Assembly: GCF_964194025.1 (NCBI RefSeq)
Contig: NC_134471.1
Location: 65,162,001 to 65,226,000 of the forward strand
Length of the DNA: 64,000 bases
Direction: 5' to 3'
Origin: Convolutriloba macropyga
Taxonomy: Eukaryota
The position numbers and the translations under genes were made by a program. Positions 2-29,305 of the stretch are shown here, piece by piece. Positions within the stretch are counted from its first letter, which is position 1, and every line of letters starts with the position of its first letter. Under the pieces are notes generated by a model. That model was given only the letters and a program-made list of their open reading frames with translations, made no database searches and had not been told where the DNA came from.

Positions 2-1384
2 AAGGGTGAGTCTGATAAGTTACGAAAGCTTTACCTAGAAAAGAAAGGATACAAAGTTATAGAGATGAGAGAATGTGAATGGTGGGATCATGTTCAGAAG
101 AACTCCATGTTGAAGAACCACGTTAGAAAAAATTTCCCCTACAAAATACCTTTGAGCAGTGAGACGCTGTTGATGCGGATACAGGAAGATAAATTATTCG
201 GATATGTACAGTGTGATTTAGAAGTTCCTGAAGAGCTTCGTGAACGATTTGCAAACTTTCCTCCAATTTTCAAAAACTGTGATGTTGGAAGAGAGAATAT
301 AGGTAAATTCATGCTGGATTATGCTGAAAGAAACTCCTTATTGTTAAAACCACAACGAATGTTGATTTCGAGTTACAAATTAAACAATGGAATAGTCATA
401 ACACCATTATTAAAGTTCTATTTGAAGCTGGGTATCCGCTGTACCAAAATCCACAGATTCCTTGAGTATATCCCGCAAAAATGTTTCAACGGTTTTGTAC
501 AATCTGTTGTTGATGCAAGACGAGAAGGTGATGAAAATCCAGACTCTAGCGTTGTTGCTGAAACTATGAAATTATTTGGGAACAGCTCGTATGGTTTTCA
601 GATTATGGATCGAAGTCGACACACAGAAACTCTTTATCTTAACGATGAAAAGACGCATAAAGCTATTAATAATCGTCTTTTTAGAAGATTGAACAACGTT
701 TCGACAGATATATATGAGGTTGAGCTTGCAAAAAGCACTGTTGAGCATCGTGAACCAATAATTGTTGGATTCTTTATCTTACAGTATGCAAAACTGAGAA
801 TGCTGGAGCTCTACTACAATTTCTTTGACAAGTTCTGTGATGTTCAGAAATTTGAGGAGCTTGAAATGGACACTGATTCTCTGTATCTGGCACTGGCTCA
901 TGAAAATCTCTATGAATGCATTAAACCAGAAATGAGGAGTATTTGGAATGAGATGAGAAGTAATGACTGCACAGATTTTTTTCATGCTAATAGTACAAGT
1001 AATTTTTTCCCAAGAACTTGTTGCGATAAGCATATAAAACATGACAAGCGTGAGCCTGGATTATTCAAAGAGGAATTCCGATGTACTGAAATGCTATGTT
1101 TATGTAGCAAAACGTACTGTTGCTATAATTCAGTAACGAACAAAACTAAGTTCAGCAGCAAAGGACTTAACAAGAGTGTTCTGGAAGAAAACAGTGATGG
1201 ACCTTTACAGAAATACAGACGAGTCCTGGACGATGCAGTGAATATAGCCTCAACTAACAGAGGATTCAGAACTATAAATCACCAAATTCTAACCTATGAG
1301 CAAACAAAAAAAGGACTCTCGTTTTTCTATCCAAAACGAATTGTGGATGCAGATGGAATTCATACGACACCTTTGATAATCTAA
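2..1384 (+). CDS. Protein-primed family B DNA polymerase (pPolB) of Polinton/Maverick type, C-terminal part (5'-truncated by window edge)
   Basis: The frame is open from base 2 (KGESDKLRKLYLEKKGYKVIEMRECEW...) to TAA at 1382-1384. It has PolB motif B KLFGNSSYG, motif C EMDTDSL, and KTY and SSKG motifs. There are no introns or disablements. Confidence 0.9.
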   Translation, partial: KGESDKLRKLYLEKKGYKVIEMRECEWWDHVQKNSMLKNHVRKNFPYKIPLSSETLLMRIQEDKLFGYVQCDLEVPEELRERFANFPPIFKNCDVGRENIGKFMLDYAERNSLLLKPQRMLISSYKLNNGIVITPLLKFYLKLGIRCTKIHRFLEYIPQKCFNGFVQSVVDARREGDENPDSSVVAETMKLFGNSSYGFQIMDRSRHTETLYLNDEKTHKAINNRLFRRLNNVSTDIYEVELAKSTVEHREPIIVGFFILQYAKLRMLELYYNFFDKFCDVQKFEELEMDTDSLYLALAHENLYECIKPEMRSIWNEMRSNDCTDFFHANSTSNFFPRTCCDKHIKHDKREPGLFKEEFRCTEMLCLCSKTYCCYNSVTNKTKFSSKGLNKSVLEENSDGPLQKYRRVLDDAVNIASTNRGFRTINHQILTYEQTKKGLSFFYPKRIVDADGIHTTPLII

Positions 1385-2270
1385 ATTTTCTGATTCTTTT
1401 CTGATTCATTCATTTTATACATTTAAATCAATTGTCCGCTTGTGAACATGTGATGTGATTATAATAAAGTTTTTTCAAATTGATGAGTCCACTGTTTAAA
1501 GTAATCATTCTTGATGGGAAACCCGAACCGGGTTTTTAAAGTTCAAGCTGAGCATGTAAAAGTTTTCTGACTTATTTCGCAAGGTGTTGACCAGATCTGA
1601 GACAACCCTGGATGAAAAAATCAAGCACGACTTACTCTTCTGAAATAAAGAAACACCTGGAAATTCCTAAAGTCCCTTTTGTTCTAGCACTTCTGACTGA
1701 ATAACTTTCATCGTAGCTATCAATAAGAACTTTTTGTGTGTATCAATGTAGACATCCATATAAGGAGACCAATAAAATGTTATTAGTTCAACAGAGGTCT
1801 ATTTTGATCCATTTTTCTTCCAGTTAACCCAGAGTTGAGTTGATTGTTTTGTTTCGTTTTTATCAGTTCTTTGAGATAATCCTTTTTACCTGTACAGTCT
1901 CTGAAAATAGCTATAGTTTGCTGTGACATCATTCATAATAAATATGTGATTTAGGAACTATTAATTACAATCATGAGTTTGATCGATAGTCATTTTATAG
2001 AAACCTCTTTATTTAGAATAAGCTTATTCTCAACACAGGTGCTAATCAGAATATTTGAAAGTGTATTAGCACTGTAGAATTTTTGGCCTTACACTTAGTC
2101 TTATTGACCACTGTTTGCTACCAAGTAACTTAAAACATTAGCATTAAAAGATGACTCATCTTGAAAGAAAAACATAAACCGACAAATGTCGGAAGAATTG
2201 CTCATGAACGACATGCGAGGCACTTTAATTGATGTTCTTTAGTCTAGACCAATTTTTTCTTTATGGGTGC

Positions 2271-2384
2271 AAAAAACTTTGACCCCACCGAGACTCGAAC
2301 CACTGACCTCTCGCTCCATGACCAAAATCACTACCAAATTGGCTACGAGTCACTTAATTTTGCCATGCTCCAACCGCTTTTATA
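2271..2384 (-). ncRNA. tRNA-like RNA polymerase III transcription unit (not a canonical tRNA)
   Basis: On the minus strand: TATAAAAG (2384-2377), A-box-like TAGCCAATTTGG, B box GGTTCGAGTC, GACTC/GGGTC acceptor-like pairing over a 72-nt body (2352-2281), then TTTTTT (2276-2271). The anticodon and T stems pair poorly. Confidence 0.55.
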
Positions 2385-2642
2385 TTAGCAACTTTGGAGC
2401 ACTAGCGATCACTCAAAAATGAAGAACGAAAGCGTGAAAAATTCACTTTAGCATTCAAAGAATGTTCTAGAAGAAAAGCGCAAAAATGTCAAGTGAAAGA
2501 CTTGCATAAAAAAGACACACAAGTTTACAATAATAGCTATGAACTGCGTTCAAGAGCAATTAAAAATATAACACAGCTTCATTTTCCAATTTGCTATCTG
2601 TTAATCTTTTTTTTGTTATTTTGTGATGAAAAATTTAATGAG

Positions 2643-2912
2643 AAATCTTATACATAAGACCTATTACCAATCTTAATGCGATGTTGTTTTATTTGCAATC
2701 TTAATGCGTGTAAAATCTAAAACCTATCTTTATAAATTACTGTCAAAAATCAGATCTTAATTCATGTAAAATCTATTACCCATCTTTATACGTTGTTCCC
2801 ATAACTCTAATGTTAATACATGTAAAACCTATTACCCATTTTTATACAATACTATCAAAAATCAAATCTTAATACATGTAAAATCTATTACCTATCTTTA
2901 TACATTACTGTG
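2643..2912. repeat. Subterminal tandem repeat, ~56-bp unit, 4-5 degenerate copies
   Basis: The TCTTAATACATGTAAAATCTATTACC-like motif recurs at about 2699, 2755, 2811 and 2867. Confidence 0.8.
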
Positions 2913-3553
2913 ATAATTGAACGGTGACCAAAATGATTTGAAATCGCTATAGCCTATCTTAAAACATGTGGGTCACCACCCCCCCCCCCCGGGCAGCTCC
3001 GCTCATCTATATACTACTGGGGGGGTACGTGTGGGGGTGGGGTACGTTGGGTAGCTCACACTAGTTCACATGGAGGTGTATGTGGGTGATACGTGGGAGG
3101 TTGTAGTTGGATGATCAAATGAGGTAGGTATGCCCAATATTGTTAGGATTATTCCAAAAAAAAGTCTGAAACCAGTTGGGTGCAAGAAAACTGGAAAGAG
3201 TTTAAAGGAGCAAAAATTAGAGCACAAAAAGAAGAGTAATCGAATAAGATATAAGCTGAATTCAACCCAAAATTATGTGAGGTCAACGCCAAAATCTATG
3301 CAAAATATTGCAAGATCTACGCATAGAAACGCCAAAAAATATGTGAAACGTGATGTTACAGTCCGATTAGTAAAGAATACAGTTCCTAAGAAATGATTCT
3401 CTGACACTCTATGGTTCTCTGACACTCAAATGAAACACAAAACACAGACAATATCAGCCAACTTGCACAGCAACACGGACACTAGTCTTTGCCCAGAACC
3501 AAAAACAGAAAAGCCAAGGAAATCACTACGCTTCTAAACAACAAAAAGGGGCG

Positions 3554-6500
3554 TTGGTGCGAATTTTCTATGGACATCTCATCGAACAAGCAGAAAATTG
3601 TAGTTTGGGGGATGAAGAAACCACTTTTATTTCGAGAACTTTCAAACTCAACATGCAAGATGTTGACACTCAAAGAGAACGTCTGAAAAAGACTGTTTCG
3701 CCAACAAAAGCTCTTGAAGTTGCAGTCCATATAGAAATGGGGGCGCAAAATCAACAGAAAATAAATCAAAATCTGAATATTAACGCTCAATTGGTCAATG
3801 TTGTCAATAATTTCCAGGGACACAATTGCAAGGTGAATTACCAGCAGCCACGAAAGGACTTCACTCGCTATCCAACTGTCCTTCAAACTACCAAAATACT
3901 AGCATCTGTGCTAATTGTGGTCAGCGCTGGAACCATAACCACCGCCAAATTCGTCCCGCGAGTGGTAAGAAATACAATAATTACGGAATTATAGGAATTT
4001 TTGCTAAAAAGTGTCGCAAACTTAAAAACTCACGGCGCAAACGTCGAAACCTCCACAAACAATTTTCCACCATACTAACACAAACACCACTAAAAAAGAC
4101 GAAGAAGAATCGGTTAATTATGTAACAAGTTATCATCAACTCTATAATCAAGTCTATGATTCTAATTACGATAGCGACTTTGGTGAATATGTGGCAGCTA
4201 CCTCCAGTGATTCTGCAAGCCAATGAGAACCCCTAAACTCAACGCAAGAGTTCTATATAGAAACATCGAAGGAAACTCGATGATTGACTCAGGTAGTGTC
4301 AGAATCCAAAAACGTTCCCCCCTTGCATGATGGATCACCACGAAACAGGACAAAGGTCTCAAAACATTTTTGAACGAATCAATCAAATTTCTGAGAAAAC
4401 AGTCATATACAACGATTGGACCTGTGAAGAAGCTTGCTTAACAGTCGTGGAGGACGAAACTAATCATTGAGAGAGATCGTTTCAACAGTCCTGGCCTGGC
4501 AGCGGTGCAGCAACAAGCAAAAAGGGGTAATTGGGTTTACAGTAATAATAATTCTACACGTAAATTTAAACCGAAAATCGTGTCGCAATTTCCCCGCCTA
4601 GTTTCACGAATTGGCTTCTCAAACACCCATGTATTGAAATCAAAGTTTCATCAAAAGTTTACAACAAAGCCTCAAAAAGCTCGTCGCGTTCCCATTAACC
4701 TCCAGCCTAGAGTTAGAGTCGAAATAGATCGTCTACAAAAAAGAAGTATATTCTGAACAAATATCTAGCTCCTCTGACGAACACGTTATATCCCCGATAG
4801 TAATCACAGTATAAAAAGATCAATCTATGAAACTTGCATTAAGTTCTAAAGTTGTAAATAAATCAATTCACAAAAAAGATCAAATGCCCAACATTGAAAT
4901 AATAATAGATTCAATTTCACATAATTTTGTAAACACACAACACGGACAACAAGCATATTATTCAACAATAGCTCTCAAATATTCTTATAGTCAATTACAA
5001 CTGCACACCACAAAGACACTGTAATTTCAATAATAATTGCGGAGAATCAACCGGTGCCTAGAGATTTAAAACCGAATTTTACGGCATTTCTGACATGTTA
5101 GCTGATTTTCAAAAGGCAATGAACTTTACCCTTGTAGACCACCAAAAAAACATTCATTTCTTGATATCATTATTATTGTTAGCACAGGATCAGAATCCGA
5201 TCACATTAGTTATGTCACTAATTGCCTTAACATCTAGACAATGATGATTTGAGAATTAATCATCAAAAATGCCATTTCGTAAAAACGGACACTGAGTTCC
5301 TTGGCCACAAATTCACCCACGCAGGTATGTCACCACTTGAAAGTAAAACCACATCTATATTAGCATTACCACCACCATTAACATTAAAACGCATAAGATC
5401 TTTTCTTCGGTCATTACACTATATGAGTAAATTCATACCAAATCTAGCACAACTCTGCCACCTTCTTAGACCACTTCTAAAAAAATCCGCCAAATTCCTC
5501 TGGACTGAAGAACACGCTAAACATTCAAACATTAAAAATGTAAAAAGTGCTACAAGCACCGAAAATGGCTTATATAATCCAAAACTAGATGTTCGTGTGA
5601 AAAGTGATGCATCTCGTTCTGGACTAGAGTGCTGCCCTCGAACAAAACAGTTCTGATGGATAAAAACCTATTGCATTCGCATCACGATTTCTTAATCCTA
5701 CAAAAGAAAGCTACATTGTCGGTAAACCAAAAATACTTGGAATCGCTGGGTCAATTGACTACTTTCAATACTACCTCTATAGAAATGACTTCACTGTAAT
5801 AACAGATCATTGCGCTTTGCTATCAATCCTAGAGGAACATAGATCCAATAAGTCCTACAATAGTCTTCTTTCTAGATGGATTGACTGTCTACTTCTCTAT
5901 AATTTCACAATTGAAATTTTCCTTAGAGCAAAATGGGTTTTATAGACAAAATCTCAATAAACTTTTTCACCAAAGCTAAGAAAATGTCGTTGTATGTTTT
6001 GTGGTGGCAACGATACCTCAAATTCGGGATTCCTTCAATCACCTAGTCAAACATAGATCACAAACAGTAAAAAAGCAAGATAGAATTCACCGTTACAAAC
6101 ATCAAGTATGTTAACCGGACCGCAAACACCTAATTTAATTGATAACAATTCACAAATCCGGATTACAGCAAATACATCACAATCGCCATATCCCAACTCT
6201 TCATTGCCAATTGCTTTGCTATTGACACATCAGAATAAATCTATAATTCCCCAATTAAAAACGTCAATCGCGTCGCAAATACCTCTTCAAAATTCTAAAC
6301 ATAAATCATTTTCTATTAACAAATCTGCGCTGCAAAAGTCAGAAACTAAAGAATGAAATAATCTTAACAATTAAACCCAATAAAGTCCGTATTTGATACC
6401 AACTCAAATAATCACCACAAATTCCTCAAATCAGGCGCAAAAGTAGAAAATACCAACTATAAAAGCAACCAACTCAAAAACTCGCTTTTTGCCCGAAATC

Positions 6501-15169: not shown

Positions 15170-15373
15170 AAAGTTTCATATCAAGTCAGGGCCGCTGAGG
15201 CATGGCCATGGCCATTAAATATGTTTAAACATAGGGTACTAACGACTGCTAATTTGTTGGCGGATCATTGAACGGAAGTATCCAAGTACATTGGGTATAT
15301 TGGCATTGGGTATAATGGCATTGGAGATTTTGGCATTGGGTATAATGGCATTGGGTAAATTGTCCTGACACCC
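15170..15373. mobile_element. Foldback MITE A (one end visible; the rest is in the N run)
   Basis: Core sequence followed by about four 15-bp repeats TGGCATTGGGTATAA, ending TTGTCCTGACACCC. Confidence 0.65.
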
Positions 15374-15566
15374 TTATAATGATAATCAGCTGTTCTTATA
15401 ATGATAATTGTCAACTTTTAGATAATCATTTTCAAATTCAGCAATGTTCTTCTACCGATATCATTACGTAAATCTAAACATTTTTATTGCTTTTTCAGTT
15501 TTCAAGGATATACAGCATTTTAAATTTGAGTAGCACTGATAACTTGATTTGTAAAAGAGGGATGAT

Positions 15567-16053
15567 CGTGTCCGGACAAAACAGTCCCAGACAAAACAGT
15601 CCCAGACAAAACAGTCCCAAATTGCAAAATATTCCCAGACAAAATAGTCCCAAGAAACCAGACAAAACAGTCCCAGACAAAATAGTCCCAAATAAAATGT
15701 ACCTAATGCCATTATACCCAATGTACTTTGAAATGTTCGTTCAATAATCCGACAACAAATTAGCAGTCGCTATTACCCGTATGTTTTAACATACTTAATG
15801 GCCATGGCCATGCCTCAGCGGCCCGTGGGACTTGATATGAAACTATCACAACCGAACATGGGATTAAATTATCCGCTTGTTAAATCATACGTGTGAGAGC
15901 TATAATAATGGCCTTGGGACTATTTTGTCTGGGACTGTTTTGTCTGGTTTCTTGGGACTATTTTGTCTGGGACTGTTTTGTCTGGGAATATTTTGCTATT
16001 TGGGACTGTTTTGTCCGGGACTGTTTTGTCTGGGACTGTTTTGTCTGTTCACC
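15567..16053. mobile_element. Foldback MITE B with TIRs built from 15-bp tandem repeats and an 8-bp TSD
   Basis: (GACAAAACAGTCCCA)n at left and its reverse complement at right. GGGATGAT is duplicated at 15559-15566 and 16054-16061. Confidence 0.85.
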
Positions 16054-18429: not shown

Positions 18430-21400
18430 ATTGATAATCAACTGATAACAGAAAACTAAATTTTGAAAGTTTTTTGTTCAAACAGATGCAAAGTTCCAAG
18501 AAATTTTCTATTGCTTTACTACATTGTCGAATTGATTTCATTTTAATTGTAATTTGAATAAGTTGCATTTTACATGAAGTTGGCAGATATAGCGAAATAC
18601 TTTGTAAACGTTTTTTATTATTGATAATTTTCCCAGAACAATTAACTTTTCTCCTTTCATGAATATTATTCTCCTTTCATAGATTTTTTCTTGCTAAATA
18701 GTTTTTAGATAAAAGACTAATGACAATAAATCTGTTTAATTGTGAAAACCTTACTCTAAACCCGTTTCGGAAGCAGAAGATAAACAGGAGGCGCAGATGG
18801 CTGAAAATTGAGTGCTACCATCATGGTAATCTTCTTCTACATAGTTCTCAATGTGAAATTACAGCAACTGTTAGCCAAACTATGAAAAAAAATTTTTTGA
18901 AACAAATGCAGGTATGATGTAATTTGCACCGCAAGAGACTATCGCACAACTTTGCCTTAATTACAAAAAAACTGCTAAGAAATTGGGACAAACAAAAAAT
19001 AATGAAAGAAAAAGGCGAAATAGTCTTCCTAGATAAGGCTGTCTGCGTTGATGAACAAAAAAGTCTCTTGCAACTGGTACAAAAATTCAACAGAAAGCGG
19101 AGCAATACTGAACTTCCGTACCTGCAAAAACCTCCAGCAGAAAATTTATGCTGACGCCGCTATCCATAAGTTTTTCTGATCAACGAGCAACTGGGATTAC
19201 TCTGTTGAAATTTTAAATATCAACAAAAACATTTGGCAGAGAGAGCAAAATCCTGAACATTGGACTTCAAGTAGTGTAATTAAGACTAATTGAAATATTT
19301 TAGTTAACCGAAAAACGGACTGCAAAAAACCAGTAGAACGCTTTTCTAAGGTTATGAGAAACCCGAGGCAGGAAACAATATTTTTTTGTACTTTAGAGGC
19401 CAAAAGTGCATTAGACCAAAAGAAAACTGACTAAAATAACGGCTCCTACAGTTTTCTACACAACAAAAAAACCCAAAACCTCCTTATGATCCTTTAAGTC
19501 TAGTATTGATCAGCATCTAAAATCAAACCTGGTATACGAACAAACTTGTAGTGCATACATTTTGTGCAAACTTGCACTCATATAATAGTTGCAGACATAT
19601 AATGCAGACATATAACATAAAGTAGTTTGCTTGGTGTATGTTTTTTGAAAGCAATGTGCCACAAATACTTCTGACTCATGAACCAAAACTCATAGTGCAG
19701 CGCAAAAGCATCGACTAAAGCGCTTGAGAAGGACCGAAGCAAGGAACTAGCATTAAATCTTTACTTAAGATTTGATGGATATATTCCTTGATCCAAAATA
19801 TATGTTTTAGCGCATTAAAGAGCTGAAATGTTCAGAATTTTTGCTAGAATTTTGGAAAAAATAAAAAAAATTTTGAGATTTAAATTGCCAGACCCTCAAT
19901 AGCAATTGAAATACATAACGGGAAACTTTTTAATTTTTCAAATGTAAAAATTTAAGAAACTCTTATTTCATTATTTTACTTCATAAATGAATTATTATTA
20001 ACTTAAATTCAAATTAAAAAACTTTCATCTTGTCCCATGGTTGTAGATATAAGAAAAACTTTTGCTAATAATTTTTATAATTAACTTAGCTTTTGAACAA
20101 ACAATCTTTATAATTAAAGACTCGCATGCGGAATTCTTCTTGCGAAAGAAAATGCCCTAAATATCTACCTTAATGGATAAAAGCAAAAAATAGTAATTGT
20201 TCTTAAAAGTAAGAACCTTCCTGAAAAACAAAATTTTGGAGTGAGAGGATAACGAGGACTCGGGGATGACTGAAAAAGAGAGCTAGATGACGTTATTTGT
20301 ATTGCAATGATGGACCCCAATTACAAGTTAGAATTAAATGATCTTTATTGCATCGCAAAGAGGCACGTCTAAAATTTGTTACAAGTAGGAAACAATTTGC
20401 ATGCAAAATTTATTTCAGAATTGGAAATTGAAGAAAGCACGTTCACTATTCTTGCTAGATAGAGCTGTCTACGTTTGTGAAAAGAAGAAACTCTTCTGTA
20501 AAAGGTGCAAAAATCCAACAGAAACTTGAACAAAACTAAAATATGCAGCTGCTCACACCTTTAGCAGAAAGTTTTCTTTGAGTGCGCTATCCCTAAGTTT
20601 TGCAATTGACGAGAAACTGGCTTTACTCAGGAGAAATCGAACATATCAACAAAAATATACGGCAAAAAGAAAATTTCCCGAGACTCGGACATTAGGCATT
20701 GCAAATAGAAACATTTAAGATAACCCAAAAAGACCACAAAAACGGCAGCTTAATTCAATTCTTTAGTTATGGAAATTCAGTAGAAAATACCAAAAAACTT
20801 TTCTGCTTTACCCAGGCCAATAAAGCATCTGACCAAAAAACTATTAAAAAATAACGGCTGCTTTAGGGATTTATATAACAAAGCAACTGAAAATTTGTTT
20901 ACCATCCTCGAAGTCTAGGTTTGATCAGCATCTAAAATGACATCAGCTATGCAAAATAATTTATAGTGAATGCCTTTCCAATTGTGTTGGGCGAACTTGA
21001 AGATATATAACCACGCGGATGGCAAGGAATCAAACTTAGACTCACTGGTAGCTCAAAATGTAAGCAATGGTTGTTTGAAAACATGATAGTTTGCTTGGTG
21101 TATGATTTTTGAAAGCTATATGCCAAAAACACTTCTGACTCTTGAACAAGACTCATAGTTCAGCGAAAACCATCTCTTAACGCGCTTGTCAAATACCAAA
21201 GCAATGAACTTCCATTACATCTTTATTTAAGATTTGACGGATATATTTTTTCATCCAGAATTTTTGTTTTAGCAATTTAAAACGCTGAAATGTTCAGAAT
21301 TGTTTCTGAAATGAAAGAAAACGAACAAAAAATTGATATCTAGTTTACTGGGCCATCAATAGCAATTGAAATGCGCAACGGCAAATCTAAGGAATTTTCA

Positions 21401-24400
21401 AAAGTAAAATTCAAGAGACTCTCATTTTATTGTTTACTTCATGAGTGGATTACTATCAATTTAACTGTAATTTTTATAATTTTTATTTTGTCTAACATAT
21501 ATTAGGAAAACTTTTGTTAATAGCATTTGTAATTTACTTAGCTTTTGAACAAATAATGCTTATACTTTAAGGAACTATTGAAATAATTTTCTTGGAACAG
21601 AAGCTGCCCTAAATGTCTACCTAACTAGATACAAAGCAAAAGATTTTAGTTGTTTTTAAATGTAAAAGCCTTCCTCCAAAACAAAACTTTGGAAATAGAG
21701 GATAAAAAAGACACGGGGATCACTGAAAATCAGAGCTAGATGACGTTATTTGTATTGCAATGAAGGACCCCAATTACAAGTTAGAATTGAATGATCTTTA
21801 TTGCATCGTAAAGAGGCACCTCGAAAATTTGTTACAAGTGGGAAACAATTTGCATGCAAAATGTAATTCAGAATTGGAAAATTGATGAAAACATGTTCAC
21901 TAGTCTTGCTAGATAGAGCTGTCTACGTTTGTGATTAAAAAAAACTCTTTCGTAAACGGTAGAAAAAGCCAACAGAAAACTAAACGAAATCGAATTTTGC
22001 AGCTGCTCATGCATTTAGCAGAAATGTTTTCTTGAGGGCAGTATCCCTAAGTTATCCAATCGACGAGAAACCGTTATTCAGCAGTCGAATATATCAACAA
22101 AAACATACGACAGAACAGACAATATCCTGAGACTTGGACATCAAGCATTGCAATAACAAAATATAAGTTAACCCAAAAAGACCACAAAAACAACAGCTGA
22201 ATGCTATTCGAATGCTGCGGAAAACAGTAGGAGATACTAAGAACTTTTCTACATTACCGAGGCCAATGAGGCATATGGCACAAAAATTACAAAAATTAAC
22301 GGCTCTTTCATTGATTTACAAAGCAAAGCAACTGAAAACCTGTTTATCATCCTTAAAGTCTGGTTTTGATCAGAAACTAAAATTGAACCTGCTATGCAAA
22401 ATAATTGGTGGTGGATGCCTTTCCAACTGTATTGGGCAAATTTGCAGAAGGGTATCCAGGTGGATGGATAGGAATCAGAAATTGTACTCACCTGTTGGTC
22501 AATTTGTAAGCCAGAGATGCGTCGCAAACTGGGTGTTTGATCAGGGTTTAATTAATGAAAAGCAATATGTCACAAAAACTCATGATCATTGAAGCAATAG
22601 AAATAGCAATACAAAAACCATCGCTGAAGAAGCGTGATGAGTACTGAAGCCAGGAACTGATAATAAAACATTAGTTAAAACTGGAGAAATTGTTCTGTTC
22701 AAAAATTTCATCTCAGCGTATTTAACTTTTTTGCGTAAATTCAGGTTACAACGCGAAAAAAATTTTTAGAAACCTTCTATTTAACAAAAAAGAGTTCTAA
22801 GATACCCTTCTTTCTTTCAGAAGATATATTCTTTTGGTTTTACTTCATAAATTAATTAAAATAACTTTAACTGTAATTTGACTAACTTGCGTGTTTCCTG
22901 ATGATGACAGATTAAGTAAGAATCTCTTTAGACGTCTTTTTACAACTGTTTGGGTTCTGGAACAAGTACTCGTTCTCTATTAATTGATTTATATGAATTT
23001 TTTTAGAAATTGGACTAATTATTTAATAACCTGGAAAATTTGCAAATTTAAAAAATTTGTTTAATTTTGAAAACCTCACTTGAAACGCACGCTTTGTATG
23101 AAGAAGAAAAGCAGGGAACGGAGTGAACTGAGAAAAATTTGTTTCCATCAATTGTTAATCCTTCTTTCACATAACTTTATAATTGAAGTTACAACCACAG
23201 ATAAATAGGAAAAGAAAATTTTGAAAACGAAGAGGAAGTTTCTTCAACGCTGAAAACAAGCCCAAAAATCTGCTGCATCTGGGAATTGTTTTGCATGCAA
23301 ATAAAGAAATAATGAAAAAAAGTAAAATGGGCTTCTGAGATACGGCTGTGTACGTTGATGAGACAAGCAGTACCCACTGTAAAGGCCATCAAAAACGGTA
23401 CCTGCGCACAATTTCAGCACAGAAAAATGTTTTTAAGGGCGCCATCTACGCGTTTTTCTGATCTACAAAAATTTATGGCTGAAAAACATTAGCCTAAGAA
23501 TTCGACGTCAGGCATTGAAAAATAGACAAAAGCATACGTTGACGGAAACAAGACCACAAAACAGCAGATGATTCCAGAATTATGTTAAACTAGGAGGAAA
23601 TACCACGCTTTTGCCTACATTATAGAGGTAAGTAAAATTTTAGACTAGAAAAGAATATTAGATTCAAAAAAATTACGGCTCATACAGTGACTTACCCGAA
23701 AAAAAATCAGTTCCTGCTTGCCATCCTTAAAGTCTAGCTTTATTCAACAGCTAAAATTGCACCTGGTTTACTTAAATTTTTGTTGAGAACGCATTGCCAG
23801 CTTTGTCGGTCCAACGTGCAGACATCTAACCACGCCGATTGCAGAGGATCAAAAAAAGGACTCACAATTTTATCAGCATGCAATCCGATATTTTGGCACC
23901 ACTTGGGTTATGAATGACCTATCTCTAATGAAAAAATATGCCCAAAAACTCAAGACTGTTGCGGCAATAAGCATAACACAACAGGAACCATCTCTTAACA
24001 CGCCTGACGGGAACCAAAGCCGTGAACTGACATTAAATTGTTAGTCAAACTTAGACATGATGTTTTATTGGAAAATTACTTTTTAGAGTATTAAAACGTT
24101 CAATCTTCAACATTATTGAAATCTTAGTTTCAAAGGAAAACATAGTTCAGAAGACATCTTTTTTTAATCGCTTTATATCATAAATAAATTATTATCATTT
24201 ATCTTGAATGAACAACTTAATGATTTGTAGTTTAGCTGACGATGACAGGATCAGCAATGACCATATAATTCCTTTAATTGTCTTAGTTTTTGAACAACTA
24301 ATCCTTCTCCTCTAATTTTATTATAGCGGACTTTTTTTCTCGTGTTAGAAAGTGGTTCAAAACTTTAACCACTTGAAGACAAGTCAAAAAACAAGGCTTT

Positions 24401-27400
24401 GTTTCATAGCCAGAACCCTTCTCAAAACCAAAGTTTTCGATGCCGAGATCAGGTAGGAAACTATTTTCTTAGGAAGTTTTTTTCGAAGTTGAAAAATGGG
24501 CATTCTTTTGTTAACGCTGAAACTTTTTAGAAGAAGAAGAAAACAATTAACTTTGATTCAATGTATAATATACCAAGAGGTTGCATTTTTAGTCAAACGG
24601 CGGGGAAAAATAACAGCGCTTATTATACATTTAAAAAAGAAAATAAAAGATTAATCGCCTTGTTAGTTTCTTAAAGTTACTTTTAAATGCTAGCTTTTGA
24701 TTGGTGATGTAGTCGTAAAGCACAAAATTGACCGCATTTCTGTTCTTTGTTTAGTATTAAAAAGCATTTTAGTTTATTGTAAGAATTCTAGATCCTTTAT
24801 AATTAGATCTGATAAAAATTTGAATCCTCAGTTCAATTGCGCGTTCAAGTAATGAGAATAGGTTTTTCTTATTATTGATTAATAACAGAGCCGAGTATTG
24901 TCAATACAATAGCACAAGCGAGCTGAAAAGTTTTTCCAAATTTATTGCTGAAAAATGAACCCTACAGATTTTTTGTTTTATTTCCTACATCAATGGTGTA
25001 TGTTTTTTGAGTGAATTACTATCAGTTTAATTGTTAATTGAAAAACTATTGTTTCGCTTGAAGATGACAGATAAAGAAAAACCTTTGTCAATAATTTTTG
25101 TAATTACCTTAGTTTTTGAACAAATGATATTTATCCTTTAATGAACCATACGCAAAAATTTTATGGCAAAAAAAGTTGCCCTAAATATCTGATTAACTGG
25201 ATACAACGCAAAAGATATTAATAGCCATTAATTGTAAGAACCTTCCTCAAAAGCAGATTTTTGAAAGGAGAGGACAAAAAGGTCAAAGGGATGACTGAAA
25301 AAGAGAGCTAGACGATGTTATAACATAAAGTAGCAGACATATAACATAAAGTAGTTTGCTTGGTGTATGTTTTTTGAAAGCAATGTGCCACAAATACTTC
25401 TGACTCATGAACCAAAACTCATAGTGCAGCGCAAAAGCATCGACTAAAGCGCTTGAGAAGGACCGAAGCAAGGAACTAGCATTAAATCTTTACTTAAGAT
25501 TTGATGGATATATTCCTTTATCCAAAATATATGTTTTAGCGCATTAAAGAGCTGAAATGTTCAGAATTTTTGCTAGAATTTTGAAAAAAAAAAAAATTTT
25601 GAGATTTAAATTGCCACACCCTCAAAAGCAATTGAAATACGTAACGGGAAACTTTTTAATTTTTCAAATGTAAAAATTTAAGAAACTCTTATTTTATTAT
25701 TTTACTTCATAAATGAATGATTATTAACTTAAATTCAAACTAAAAAACTTTCATCTTGTCCGATGATTATAGATATAAGAAAAACTTTTGCTAATGATTT
25801 TTATAATTAACTTAGCTTTTGAACAAATAATCTTTATCCTTAAAGAATCGCATGCAAAATTCTTCTTGCAAAAGAAGATGCCCTAAATATCTACATTACT
25901 GGATAAAAAGCAAAAAAGAGTAATTGTTCTTAAAAGTAAGAACCTTCCTCAAAAACAAAATAATGGAGTGAGAGGATAACAAGGACACGGGGATGCCTGA
26001 AAAAGAGAGCTAGACGACGTTATTTGCATTGCAATGAAGGACACGAATAACAAGTTACAACTAGATGACGTTATATGCATCGTAAAGAGTCACCTCAAAA
26101 ATTTGTTACAAGTAGGAAACAATTTGCATGCAAAATGTAATTCACAATTGAAAAATTGAAGAAAACACGTTCACTAGTCTTACTGGATAGAGCTGTCTAC
26201 GTTTGTGATTAAAAAAAACTCTTTCGTAAACGGTAGAAAAAGCCAACAGAAAACTAAACAAAACTGAATTTTGTAGCTGCACATGCATTTAGCAGAAATA
26301 TTTTTTTGAGGGCAATAACCCTAAGTTTTCCAATTGACGAGAAACTGGCAATACTCAGCAGTCGAATATATCAACAAAAACATACGGCAGAAAAGACAAT
26401 ATCCTGAGACTCGGACATCAGGCATTGCAAAAAGAAGAATATAAGGTAACCTAAAAATACCACAAAATTGGCAGCTGAATGCAATTCTAAAGCTGTGGAA
26501 ATTCAGTAGGAGATACTAAAAATTTTTCTACATTGCCGCGGTCAATAAGGCATGGAGCCAAAAAAAACTACAAAAATTAACGGCTCTCTCAGTGATTTAC
26601 GTAGCAAAGCAAATGAAAATCTGTTTACCATCCTTCAAGGCTGGTTTTGATCAGAAACTAAAATTGCACCTGCTATGCAAAATAATTGGTGGTGGATGCC
26701 TTTCCAACTGTATTGGGCAAATTTGCAGAAGGGTATCCAGGTGGATGGATAGGAATCAGAAATTGTACTCACCTGTTGGTCAATTTGTAAGCCAGAGATG
26801 CGTCGCAGACTGGGTGTTAGATTAGGGTTTAATTAATGAAAAGCAAATGTCACAAAAACTCATGAACATTGAAGCAGTAGGCATAGGGATTCCGAAACCC
26901 TCGCTGAAGAGGCGTGATGAGTACTGAAGCCAGGGACTGATTAAAAAAACTTAGTTAAAACTGGACATGTTGTTTTGTTCAAAAAATACATCTCAGCATA
27001 TTTAATTTTTCAAAATTAATACCGCAATGATGAAATATCACTAATATCTTTGGACGGCTGAATCAATAGTAAACTCAAGTTATAAAGAGAAACAGAATTT
27101 TAGAAACTTTCTGTTTAACAAAAAAAATTCCAGGAAGCACTTCTTTCTTTCAAAAGATACATTCTTTTGGTTTTAATTCATAAATGTGCTAAAATCATTT
27201 TAACGGTAAGTTAATTAACTTGCGATTTGCCCGATGATGACAGATTAAGTAAGAATCTTTTTAAAACTGTTTGAGTTCTGGAACAAGTACTCGTTCCCTA
27301 TTAATTGAGTTAAATTAAATTTTTTAGACTAACTGGATATATTTGAAATTTTTAACTAACTGGATATATTGCAGAGTTAAAAATTTTTTAATTGTGAAAA

Positions 27401-29305
27401 CCTTACTTGAAACGCATGCTTTGTATGAAGAAGAAAAGCATGGATCGGAGATGACTGAGAAAGATTAGCTACCATCAATTGTTAATCCTTCTTTCACATT
27501 ACTTTATATTTGAAGTTACAACCACAGATAACTAGGAAAAGAAAACTTTGAAAACGAATAGGAAATTTCTTCAACGCTAATACAAGCCCAAAAATCTGCT
27601 CCATCTGGGAAATGTTTTGCATGCAAGTAACGAATTAATGAAAAAATGAGCTGGCCTTCTGAGATACTGCTGTGTACGTTGATGAAAAAAGAAATAACCA
27701 TTGTAAAGGCGATCAAAAAACGTACCTGCGCACAACTTCAGCAAAGAAAAATGTTTCTGAGGGCGCTATTTAAGCGTTTTTCCGATCTACAAAAGCATAT
27801 GGCTTAAAAAACAGTATCCTGAGTATTCGACATCAGGCATTGAAAATCAGACAAAAACATTTTTTAACCAAAACAAGACCACAAAACAGCTGAAGATTCC
27901 AGAATTATGTTACACTAGGAGGAAATACCACGCTTTTTCTACATTATAGAGGTAAATAAAACTTAAGACTGGAAAATAATATTAGATTTAAAAAATTACG
28001 GCTCATACAGTGACTTACACGAAAAACAATATCAGTTCCCGCTTACCATCCTTAAAGTCTAGCTTTTTTCAACAGCTAAAATTGCACCTGGTTTACTTAA
28101 ATTTTTGTTGAGAACGCATTGCCAGCTTTGTCGGTCCAACGTGCAGACATCTAACCACGCCGATTGCAGAGGATCACAAAAAGGACTCACATGTTTATCA
28201 GCATGCAATTCGATACTTTGGCACCTCTTGAAATTTGAATGACCTGTCTCTAGTGCAAAAATATGCCCCAAAAACTCAAGACTGTTATGCCAATAAGCAT
28301 AACACAAGAGGAACCATCTCTTAACACGCCTGACCGGAACCGCAGCCAGGAACTGACATTAAATTGTTAGTCAAACTTAGACATGTTGCTTTATTGGAAA
28401 ATTACTTTTTAGAGTATTTAAACGTTCAATCTTCAACATTATTGAAATCTTAGTTTCAAAGGAAAACATAGTTCAGAAAACATCTTTTTTTAATCGCTTT
28501 ATATCATAAAAAAATTTTATCATTTTTCTTGAATGAACAATTTGAATGATCTGTAATTTAGCTGACCATGCCAGGATAAGCAATGAACATATAATTCTTT
28601 TAATTGTCTTAGTTTTTGAACAACTAATGCTTCTGCTCTAATTTTTTTTATAGCGGATTTTTTTCTTGTGTTAGAAACTGGTTCAAAATTTTAACCGCCT
28701 GAAGACAAGTCAAAAAACAATAAATTTGTTTCAAGGCCAGAACCCTTCTCAATACCAAAGTTTTGGATGCAGAGATCAGGTAGGAAACTATTTTCGTAGG
28801 AAATTTTTTTCGAAGTTGAAAAAATGGGCACTCTTTTGTTACAGCTAAAACGTTTTAGAAGAAGAAAAAAACAATTAAGTTTGATTAAATGTATAATATA
28901 TGAAGAGGTTACATGTTTAGTCAAACGGCGGAGAAAAATAAAATCGCTTATTATACATTTAAATAAGAAAATAAAAGGTTACTCGCCTTTTCAGTTTTTT
29001 AAAGTTACTTTTGATTGGTGATGTAGTCGTAAAGCACAAAATTCAGCGCATGTGAGTTCGTGTTTTAGTACTAAAAAGCATTTTGGTTAATTGTAAGGAC
29101 TCTAGAACCTTTAAAATTAGAGCTGAAGAAAAAGATTTGAATCCCCAGTTCAATTGCGCGTTCAAGTAATGAGATTAAGTTATTCTTATTATTGAATAAT
29201 AACAGAGCCGAGTAATGTAAATACAATAGCACAAGCGAGCTGAGATGTTTTTCCAGATTTTTGTTGGAAAATGAACCTTATAGATTGTATTGTTTTATTT
29301 CCTAC
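18430..29305 (+). repeat. Tandem array of ~1.45-kb units derived from the 3' part of a Penelope-like retroelement (RT C-terminus + GIY-YIG + UTR)
   Basis: RT relics LDDVICI..NNLH and IVFLDKAVCVD; GIY-YIG relic LKTCLSSLKSGFDQKLK..GCLSNCIGQICR..NQKLYSPVGQ..KLMIIEA..RDEY*SQEL, homologous to the GIY-YIG ORFs at 54128-55040. ORF-end homologues lie at about 19750, 21210, 22660, 24030, 25480, 26940 and 28355. Confidence 0.85.

What the first reader, a model, noticed from the sequence alone, without database searches (positions are those of the whole stretch)
2271..2384. Complete tRNA-like Pol III gene inside the Polinton terminal arm (possible VA-RNA analogue)
Seen directly on the minus strand: a TATA box about 25-32 nt upstream, an A box, a consensus B box, tRNA-length spacing and a T6 terminator 4 nt downstream. 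The cloverleaf arms are poorly paired (CAT sits in the anticodon-like position). Retention of all transcription signals without tRNA structure, and without a SINE-like body or tail, suggests an element-encoded small RNA or a TFIIIC-binding insulator. Adenoviruses, relatives of Polintons, encode tRNA-promoter-type VA RNAs; an equivalent here is my inference.
Basis: partly seen in the sequence, partly recalled or inferred. Interest (0 to 1): 0.7.

Follow-up and report, generated by a model that had tools for sequence, protein, structure and literature searches.

The report
tRNA-type promoter hitchhiking inside a Polinton
The tRNA-like piece is not the virus-like Polinton's own gene but the middle of a 390-base non-coding jumping element, likely of the rolling-circle kind, that landed in the Polinton's end; oddly, such elements keep tRNA promoter signals they should not need, and two different ones landed at the same spot.

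Summary
The boxes are real (score 21.6, best of 200 shuffles 18.7), but no tRNA caller or Rfam model calls the unit. It is the centre of a 389-nt insertion (2173-2561) with subterminal inverted repeats, end hairpins, T-run flanks and no target duplication: the anatomy of a non-autonomous Helentron (HINE/DINE-1 type). Its 3' end motif stands at 3,591 places. Twenty copies of this Polinton have the site empty, and a young sister family lacks the unit (20 of 20). So a Polinton-evolved VA-RNA analogue is not supported. Two surprises remain. The A box, B box and T run are kept across diverged HINE subfamilies while the tRNA stems are lost; Drosophila DINE-1 is described as lacking such boxes. And a second, differently ended HINE with its own tRNA-type cassette sits at the same site, same orientation, in at least 30 other Polinton copies. 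Best reading: the cassette likely serves the HINE and rides the Polinton as a passenger; co-option by the Polinton has about 20%. No RNA data; autonomous partner not found. The scan noted a similar HINE cassette before in another genome (e1-9807942).

The parts
65..1384 (+). 3' part of the Polinton protein-primed DNA polymerase gene (whole frame 1,444 aa, begins 2,950 nt before the window)
   Evidence: relatives carry PF03175
1385..3018 (.). Non-coding arm at the polymerase end of the Polinton
   Evidence: shared to base 3018 by the family, flanks differ beyond
2173..2561 (-). Inserted 389-nt non-autonomous Helentron-type element (HINE)
   Evidence: sharp ends in dispersed copies; empty sites
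2547..2561 (-). 5' subterminal inverted repeat (15 nt), part of a 5' fold-back 2531-2562
   Evidence: z -2.9
2378..2384 (-). TATA-like word; a feature of some HINE subfamilies, not Polinton-specific
   Evidence: TATAAA in 8 of 12 end-selected cassettes; mostly AAATAAAA in another subfamily
2334..2345 (-). A box (tRNA positions 8-19), one private change in this copy
2291..2301 (-). B box (tRNA positions 52-62)
2271..2276 (-). T6 run, predicted Pol III terminator
   Evidence: T4 or more in 9 of 12 end-selected cassettes
2196..2210 (-). 3' subterminal inverted repeat (14 of 15 complementary to the 5' one)
2179..2192 (-). 3' hairpin (5-bp stem, 4-nt loop) behind the 3' inverted repeat
   Evidence: 0 of 200 shuffles fold as well
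2168..2172 (-). T run flanking the 3' end; with 2562-2566 it forms the single T run of empty sites, no target duplication
2562..2566 (-). T run flanking the 5' end
2655..2934 (.). 56-nt tandem repeats of the Polinton arm
   Evidence: family D13
3013..3018 (+). Polinton end ACTACT

Best explanation
The unit is the internal tRNA-type promoter cassette of a 389-nt non-coding element, likely a non-autonomous Helentron, that is inserted in the Polinton arm and was likely copied on with the Polinton as a passenger. Shown: the insertion, its ends, empty sites, thousands of relatives outside Polintons, and retention of A box, B box and T run across diverged subfamilies while the stems decay. Inferred: rolling-circle mobilisation by a Rep/helicase partner (not identified). 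Inferred mechanism I commit to: TFIIIC binds the boxes, with or without a short (about 80-nt) unstructured Pol III transcript, and keeps the element's DNA open next to its 5' end, about 210 nt upstream, so that such copies are better donors and harder to silence; the benefit goes to the HINE, not to the Polinton. The origin as an insertion is about 95% sure; the confidence given covers the whole reading.
For: Empty sites: 20 of the 30 arm copies that the unit pattern missed run straight across one T run. Dispersed relatives: 0 of 30 and 0 of 30 loci have polB; 3,591 places carry the 3' end motif; nearest dispersed copies are 82-85% identical over the whole 400 nt. Ends match the HINE description in PMC4067079; a head-to-tail joint 2563->2168 stands in 4 of 4 contig sets of one study. 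Cassette in copies chosen by the 3' end alone: 12 of 30 upstream in sense, 0 antisense, 0 downstream; in 9 independent places box-critical positions agree 0.89, leader 0.52, interior 0.58; own stems pair no better than mismatched partners (3.9 vs 4.2 of 7). Not needed by the Polinton: a young sister family with open 1,453-1,468-codon polymerase frames lacks it in 20 of 20 loci fetched (of 32); 4 copies lost the TATA word and the start of the A box and still spread; diversity in the unit 0.048 vs 0.030-0.084 in the arm.
Against: At least 14 of the 30 end-selected copies have another interior without a cassette near the 3' end, so mobility does not need it. The 9 places were kept partly by a box score, which inflates box agreement. 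No autonomous partner with these ends was found in 10 + 20 Rep/helicase regions fetched. For use by the Polinton: a second cassette-bearing element sits at the same site; 0 lineage-shared changes at 24 box-critical sites against 2.6 expected (not significant); empty copies are more decayed (last 200 polB codons open in 2 of 20, against 19 of 46 and 9 of 30). TFIIIC binding and transcription are untested.
Confidence: 0.55

Rival explanations
1. Co-option: the insertion came as a HINE, but Polinton lineages that gained a Pol III cassette at this site spread better, because it insulates the terminal origin from polB read-through or host silencing, or makes a decoy small RNA (the VA-like idea, gained twice second-hand).
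For: Two differently ended elements, both with A box, B box and T run, at one site and in one orientation; at least 82 of 102 family copies seen carry one (52 + 30 vs 20 empty); in 21 copies the second element lost its 3' end and its 5' repeat changed while the cassette stayed; 0 vs 2.6 shared changes at critical sites; empty copies are older (distance 0.083 vs 0.037).
Against: The arm offers only 18 T runs of 4 or more on that strand and insertions in genes would be lost, so one site hit twice is not very unlikely; the sister family thrives without it; TATA/A-box deletions spread; the second cassette has C at position 8 in all copies and a further A-box change in the young subfamily; no stable RNA fold; copies were sampled by different queries.
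Confidence: 0.2
2. Neutral relic: an ancestral HINE captured a tRNA or SINE head once; the boxes look conserved through shared ancestry and my score filter, and do nothing for either element.
For: Half of the same-ended elements lack the cassette; no excess conservation inside the Polinton family; Helitrons capture host DNA readily (PMC6544945, passages).
Against: Spacing of 43-47 nt, boxes and T run persist among 22 hand-picked cassettes whose spacers are near-random to each other (B box 0.78, interior 0.41-0.45), and in copies found by the left part alone (12 of 16 after removing 4 Polinton copies, six of them one tandem array; 0 of 100 shuffles); an unrelated OTU-Rep-helicase element carries a like cassette too.
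Confidence: 0.2
3. The Polinton's own ancient small-RNA gene, homologous in role to adenovirus VA RNA.
For: Type-2 promoter and terminator inside a virus-like element; 47 of 48 close matches lie in Polinton arms.
Against: Empty sites, absence from the sister family and from 60 loci of other Polinton families, relatives outside Polintons, half the VA length and no stable fold.
Confidence: 0.03
4. A tRNA-derived SINE inserted in the arm.
For: tRNA-like head with worn stems is typical of SINEs (own knowledge).
Against: The cassette is internal, about 210 nt from the 5' end; the T run would stop Pol III at once; no tail, no target duplication; inverted repeats and hairpins at the ends.
Confidence: 0.02

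Closest known systems
HINE / DINE-1 non-autonomous Helentrons (PMC4067079: abstract, Background, first third of Results; PMC2374699 and PMC7492417: passages)
   Same: 12-15-bp subterminal inverted repeats, fold-back at the 5' end, short palindrome behind the 3' repeat, T-rich target, no target duplication, no coding, high copy number, exchangeable interiors.
   Different: An internal tRNA-type A box/B box/T-run cassette; PMC2374699 states that DINE-1 lacks Pol III promoter sequences and tRNA similarity, and PMC7492417 has no occurrence of 'tRNA'. No microsatellite or central tandem repeat in this copy. Partner not found.
Cassandra TRIM retrotransposons of plants (PMC10853983, abstract only)
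   Same: A non-autonomous element that keeps a host Pol III internal promoter inside its body; related elements without the promoter also exist (section heading seen).
   Different: Cassandra has a 5S promoter in LTRs and needs RNA to move; this element has a tRNA-type promoter and would move as DNA, so the promoter has no obvious job.
Adenovirus VA RNA genes (PMC7589676, passages)
   Same: Intragenic box A and box B, T-run terminator, proposed tRNA origin, place in a virus-like genome.
   Different: About 80 nt instead of about 160; no stable three-domain fold; not fixed in the family; arrived inside another transposon.
Polinton/Maverick with (AGT)2//(ACT)2 ends (end motif recalled and named in an earlier scan note)
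   Same: ACTACT end, polymerase next to the end, further frames upstream (their labels as ATPase, integrase, capsid and protease are my reading of the sequence starts, not a family scan).
   Different: The arm is polymorphic for nested HINE insertions at one site; no left inverted repeat was found for this copy.
tRNA-derived SINEs (recalled)
   Same: Worn tRNA head with kept boxes.
   Different: Cassette internal and terminated, DNA-transposon-type ends.

Membership tests
HINE (non-autonomous Helentron) | 12-15-bp subterminal inverted repeats, 5' one a few nt from the end | tested here: met
   15 nt, 14 complementary, 2547-2561 and 2196-2210; 24 and 18 of 30 dispersed loci keep the 5' and 3' repeat
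HINE (non-autonomous Helentron) | Short palindrome behind the 3' repeat; fold-back at the 5' end | tested here: met
   (z -3.6 and -2.9)
HINE (non-autonomous Helentron) | Insertion in T-rich target, no target modification | tested here: met
   20 empty sites in Polinton arms show one T run; T-rich loose ends in 4 contig sets
HINE (non-autonomous Helentron) | No coding capacity, interspersed high copy number | tested here: met
   no frame of 120 aa there; 3,591 end motifs
HINE (non-autonomous Helentron) | Autonomous Helentron with the same ends | tested here: inconclusive
   Rep with the Helentron 'GS' signature exists in the genome, but none of 10 + 20 regions fetched (of 90 and 91 matches) was shown to end in these repeats
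tRNA gene | Cloverleaf with paired stems and anticodon loop | tested here: not met
   T stem 2 of 5
Pol III type-2 transcription unit | A box and B box at tRNA spacing, T-run terminator | tested here: met
Pol III type-2 transcription unit | Transcript or Pol III/TFIIIC occupancy | not testable with these tools
   no RNA holder listed
VA RNA | About 160 nt with stable terminal, central and apical stems | tested here: not met
   about 80 nt, z -0.97; features from PMC7589676
VA RNA | Fixed gene of the viral genome across the family | tested here: not met
   20 empty copies; sister family 0 of 20
VA RNA | Blocks PKR or Dicer | not testable with these tools
   needs bench work
tRNA-derived SINE | tRNA head at the 5' end, body, tail, target duplication | tested here: not met
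Polinton/Maverick (host element) | Protein-primed polB and ACTACT end | tested here: met
Polinton/Maverick (host element) | Terminal inverted repeats at both ends | tested here: inconclusive
   no copy of the arm within 30 kb upstream; of 30 best loci for the last 139 nt, 29 are polymerase-side arms and 1 is unclear

The most novel reading that the evidence does not exclude
Rolling-circle elements of this animal keep tRNA-type Pol III cassettes as working parts, and a virus-like Polinton family has twice picked one up at the same place in its arm and kept it for its own use, as an insulator or a decoy-RNA gene: a VA-RNA-like function being born by capture of a nested transposon.
Probability: 0.2. 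Interest if true: 0.8.

Novelty: new variant of a known kind. Interest (0 to 1): 0.48.

Why it matters
A DNA transposon that copies itself by rolling circle has no known need of a Pol III promoter, and the best-studied member of this kind, DINE-1, is described as lacking one. A clan that keeps the boxes but not the tRNA fold points to TFIIIC or Pol III as a host factor in rolling-circle transposition, and it scatters thousands of possible insulator sites over the genome. The Polinton family gives a natural experiment: empty, type-H and type-X alleles at one site. If the cassette helps the Polinton, this shows a route by which viruses of this lineage could gain Pol III genes such as VA RNA. If not, it is a clear warning that small-RNA-like genes in Polinton arms can be nested passengers.

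Tried and rejected
No RNA holder listed; no evidence either way. No relative in viral contigs. Parent tRNA unresolved: best identities 45-47 of about 72 for several isotypes among the few host isotypes I held; a Pro-like stretch was seen but not decisive; the second cassette is closest to tRNA-Thr (53). Weak tRNA calls in L122 and L123 looked like cassettes in a distant Polinton family, but those copies stop 260 nt behind polB and the calls lie in unshared host DNA: rejected. Faster change of the cassette inside the Polinton (net 0.17-0.19 vs 0.04-0.08 at the ends) was first read as remodelling; closer dispersed subfamilies found later explain it. Trees of the flanks do not separate empty, H and X copies cleanly (short internal branches, probable recombination), so order of events rests on the deepest branches being empty copies, on the sister family and on the dispersed family. 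Search for the autonomous partner failed. The script stopped before its pairing control; one search ran that control on another set. Literature: no paper on Pol III genes in Polintons or tRNA cassettes in Helentrons came up in searches (listings read; open-licence library only; Repbase reports and the supplements of PMC4067079 were not seen and may list such elements).

Full report
1. The observation. On the minus strand the sequence shows TATAAAA (2384-2378), an A box (2345-2334), a B box (2301-2291) at tRNA spacing and T6 (2276-2271). With weight matrices from host tRNAs the unit scores 21.6; the best score in 200 base-shuffled arms is 18.7. It is not a tRNA: ARAGORN calls nothing, Rfam gives no tRNA match, and the strand folds no better than shuffles (z -0.97). 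Its parent isotype cannot be named.

2. The host element. The polymerase frame (1,444 aa) ends at 1384 and the element ends in ACTACT at 3018. The 30 best loci share the arm. A 24-letter motif from the unit matches 48 places in the 1.18-Gb genome; 47 are Polinton arms and one, L153, is not. Among 27 copies, diversity in the unit (0.048) lies inside the range of 72-nt windows of the arm (0.030-0.084). All close copies are at the polymerase end; no left inverted repeat was found. An earlier scan note calls the host an acoel worm (not checked).

3. The unit belongs to a separate element. L153 led to a dispersed repeat: 30 of 30 loci match window 2165-2568 with sharp edges and none has polB. An exact 18-letter motif of that subfamily stands at 131 places; of the first 30, none has polB or arm sequence, 24 keep the 5' and 18 the 3' inverted repeat. 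The 3' end motif stands at 3,591 places. The ends are 15-nt subterminal inverted repeats, a 5' fold-back and a 3' hairpin, with T runs outside. In four contig sets of one study, depth rises steeply inside 2168-2566, loose ends pile up at both edges, and a head-to-tail joint is present in all four (depth is no copy number). This is the anatomy given for HINE and DINE-1 elements in PMC4067079 (Background and first third of Results read). Rep proteins with that paper's Helentron signature exist in the genome, but I found none with these ends, so the rolling-circle label is inferred from structure.

4. Empty sites. A motif from the arm beside the insertion matches 77 places. Of the 30 that the unit motif had missed, 20 run straight across one T run with no duplication, 5 carry this element (4 with a deletion of the TATA word and the start of the A box, 1 ending in an N run), and 5 carry another insert. 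A young sister family (77% identical polymerase tail) has a shorter arm with no such element in 20 of 20 loci fetched of 32. Sixty of 77 loci of more distant Polinton families show no cassette within the element. The 46 Polinton-borne copies formed one clade against 40 dispersed copies (support 0.77), and closer dispersed relatives at 82-85% were found afterwards. The unit is therefore a nested insertion amplified with its carrier.

5. The cassette is a feature of the HINE clan. Among 30 loci chosen by the 3' end alone, 12 have an A+B cassette upstream in sense (three are one tandem array, one lies further off), none in antisense and none downstream; at least 14 have another interior without it. 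TATAAA is present in 8 and a T run in 9 of the 12, so neither is a Polinton gain. In 9 independent places the box-critical positions agree 0.89, the leader 0.52 and the interior 0.58; stems pair no better than mismatched partners. The score filter favours this result, but copies found by the left part alone give the same picture. PMC2374699 (passages) says DINE-1 lacks Pol III boxes and tRNA similarity; PMC7492417 has no 'tRNA' in its text. An earlier, unreviewed scan note reports a similar cassette in a HINE of another genome; I saw it after reaching this reading and did not test it.

6. What speaks for use by the Polinton. The other insert is a second HINE-type family with different ends and its own cassette, nearest to tRNA-Thr, at the same site and in the same orientation. 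All 30 best loci for it are Polinton arms. In 21 of them its 3' end is gone but the cassette stays. Lineage-shared changes at box-critical sites are 0 of 24 against 2.6 expected (not significant). Empty copies are older and more broken. Against this: few tolerated T-run targets exist in the arm (18 on that strand), the sister family does without, promoter-deleted copies spread, and the groups were sampled by different queries.

7. Mechanism. Shown: insertion, ends, empty sites, dispersal, box retention without fold. Inferred: rolling-circle movement; TFIIIC binding; a short unstructured transcript; a gain for the HINE through open chromatin near its 5' end (0.55). Rivals: co-option by the Polinton (0.2), neutral relic (0.2), own VA-like gene (0.03), SINE (0.02).

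8. Comparison and verdict. It works like a Cassandra-style borrowed Pol III promoter (PMC10853983, abstract) in an element built like a HINE; it fails the VA RNA tests of length, fold and fixation (PMC7589676, passages). PMC10701932 (abstract) links Helitron marks to tRNA gene clusters in Arabidopsis, a different case. Searches showed no paper on this arrangement; subscription papers, Repbase and supplements were not seen. Verdict: observation confirmed, reading corrected; a new variant of a known kind; interest 0.48.

Noticed in passing
L268:1680-2152; L285-L314: A second HINE-type element (10-nt inverted repeats, other hairpin) with a tRNA-Thr-like A box/B box/T-run cassette sits at the same arm site in the same orientation; 30 of 30 best loci are Polinton arms; in 21 its 3' end and about 550 nt of arm are replaced.
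   Followed up: yes
L235/L236; L346/L347: An OTU-Rep-PIF1 element (2,468-codon frame) has a tRNA-like A/B/T cassette about 3.1 kb behind the gene in two diverged copies, and in each 1.46-kb unit of the tandem array around one of them.
   Followed up: partly
L258, L263-L265: Four Polinton copies share a deletion (window 2345-2683) that removes the TATA word, the start of the A box and the 5' end of the HINE.
   Followed up: partly
L004/L018 (G000:C8:26315103-26315616): One Polinton copy has a 323-nt tandem duplication that doubles the cassette.
   Followed up: no
L232, L149, L264, L024, L307: Other repeat families, some in tandem, carry tRNA-like box cassettes with T runs; their ends were not defined.
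   Followed up: no
L034-L075, L355: Host tRNA genes lie in large tandem arrays with many odd anticodons and decayed copies (Thr, Ala, Cys, Lys, Arg, Pro).
   Followed up: no
window 55997-59083 +: Intronless 1,028-aa M16C (presequence protease-like) frame.
   Followed up: no
window 42006-45185 -: LINE-type endonuclease and reverse transcriptase in two frames, between 99%-identical direct repeats 7,065 nt apart.
   Followed up: no
window 15189-16052: MITE-like element with long inverted arms built of short tandem units.
   Followed up: no
window 18500-28500: Array of about 1.45-kb diverged direct repeats; no strong box cassette scored there.
   Followed up: partly
window 3250-5900: Broken frames that read like a decayed Gypsy-type gag-pol just beyond the Polinton end (my reading; no family scan).
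   Followed up: no
L224: A sister-family Polinton ends in a long array of 9-nt units containing ACTACT.
   Followed up: no
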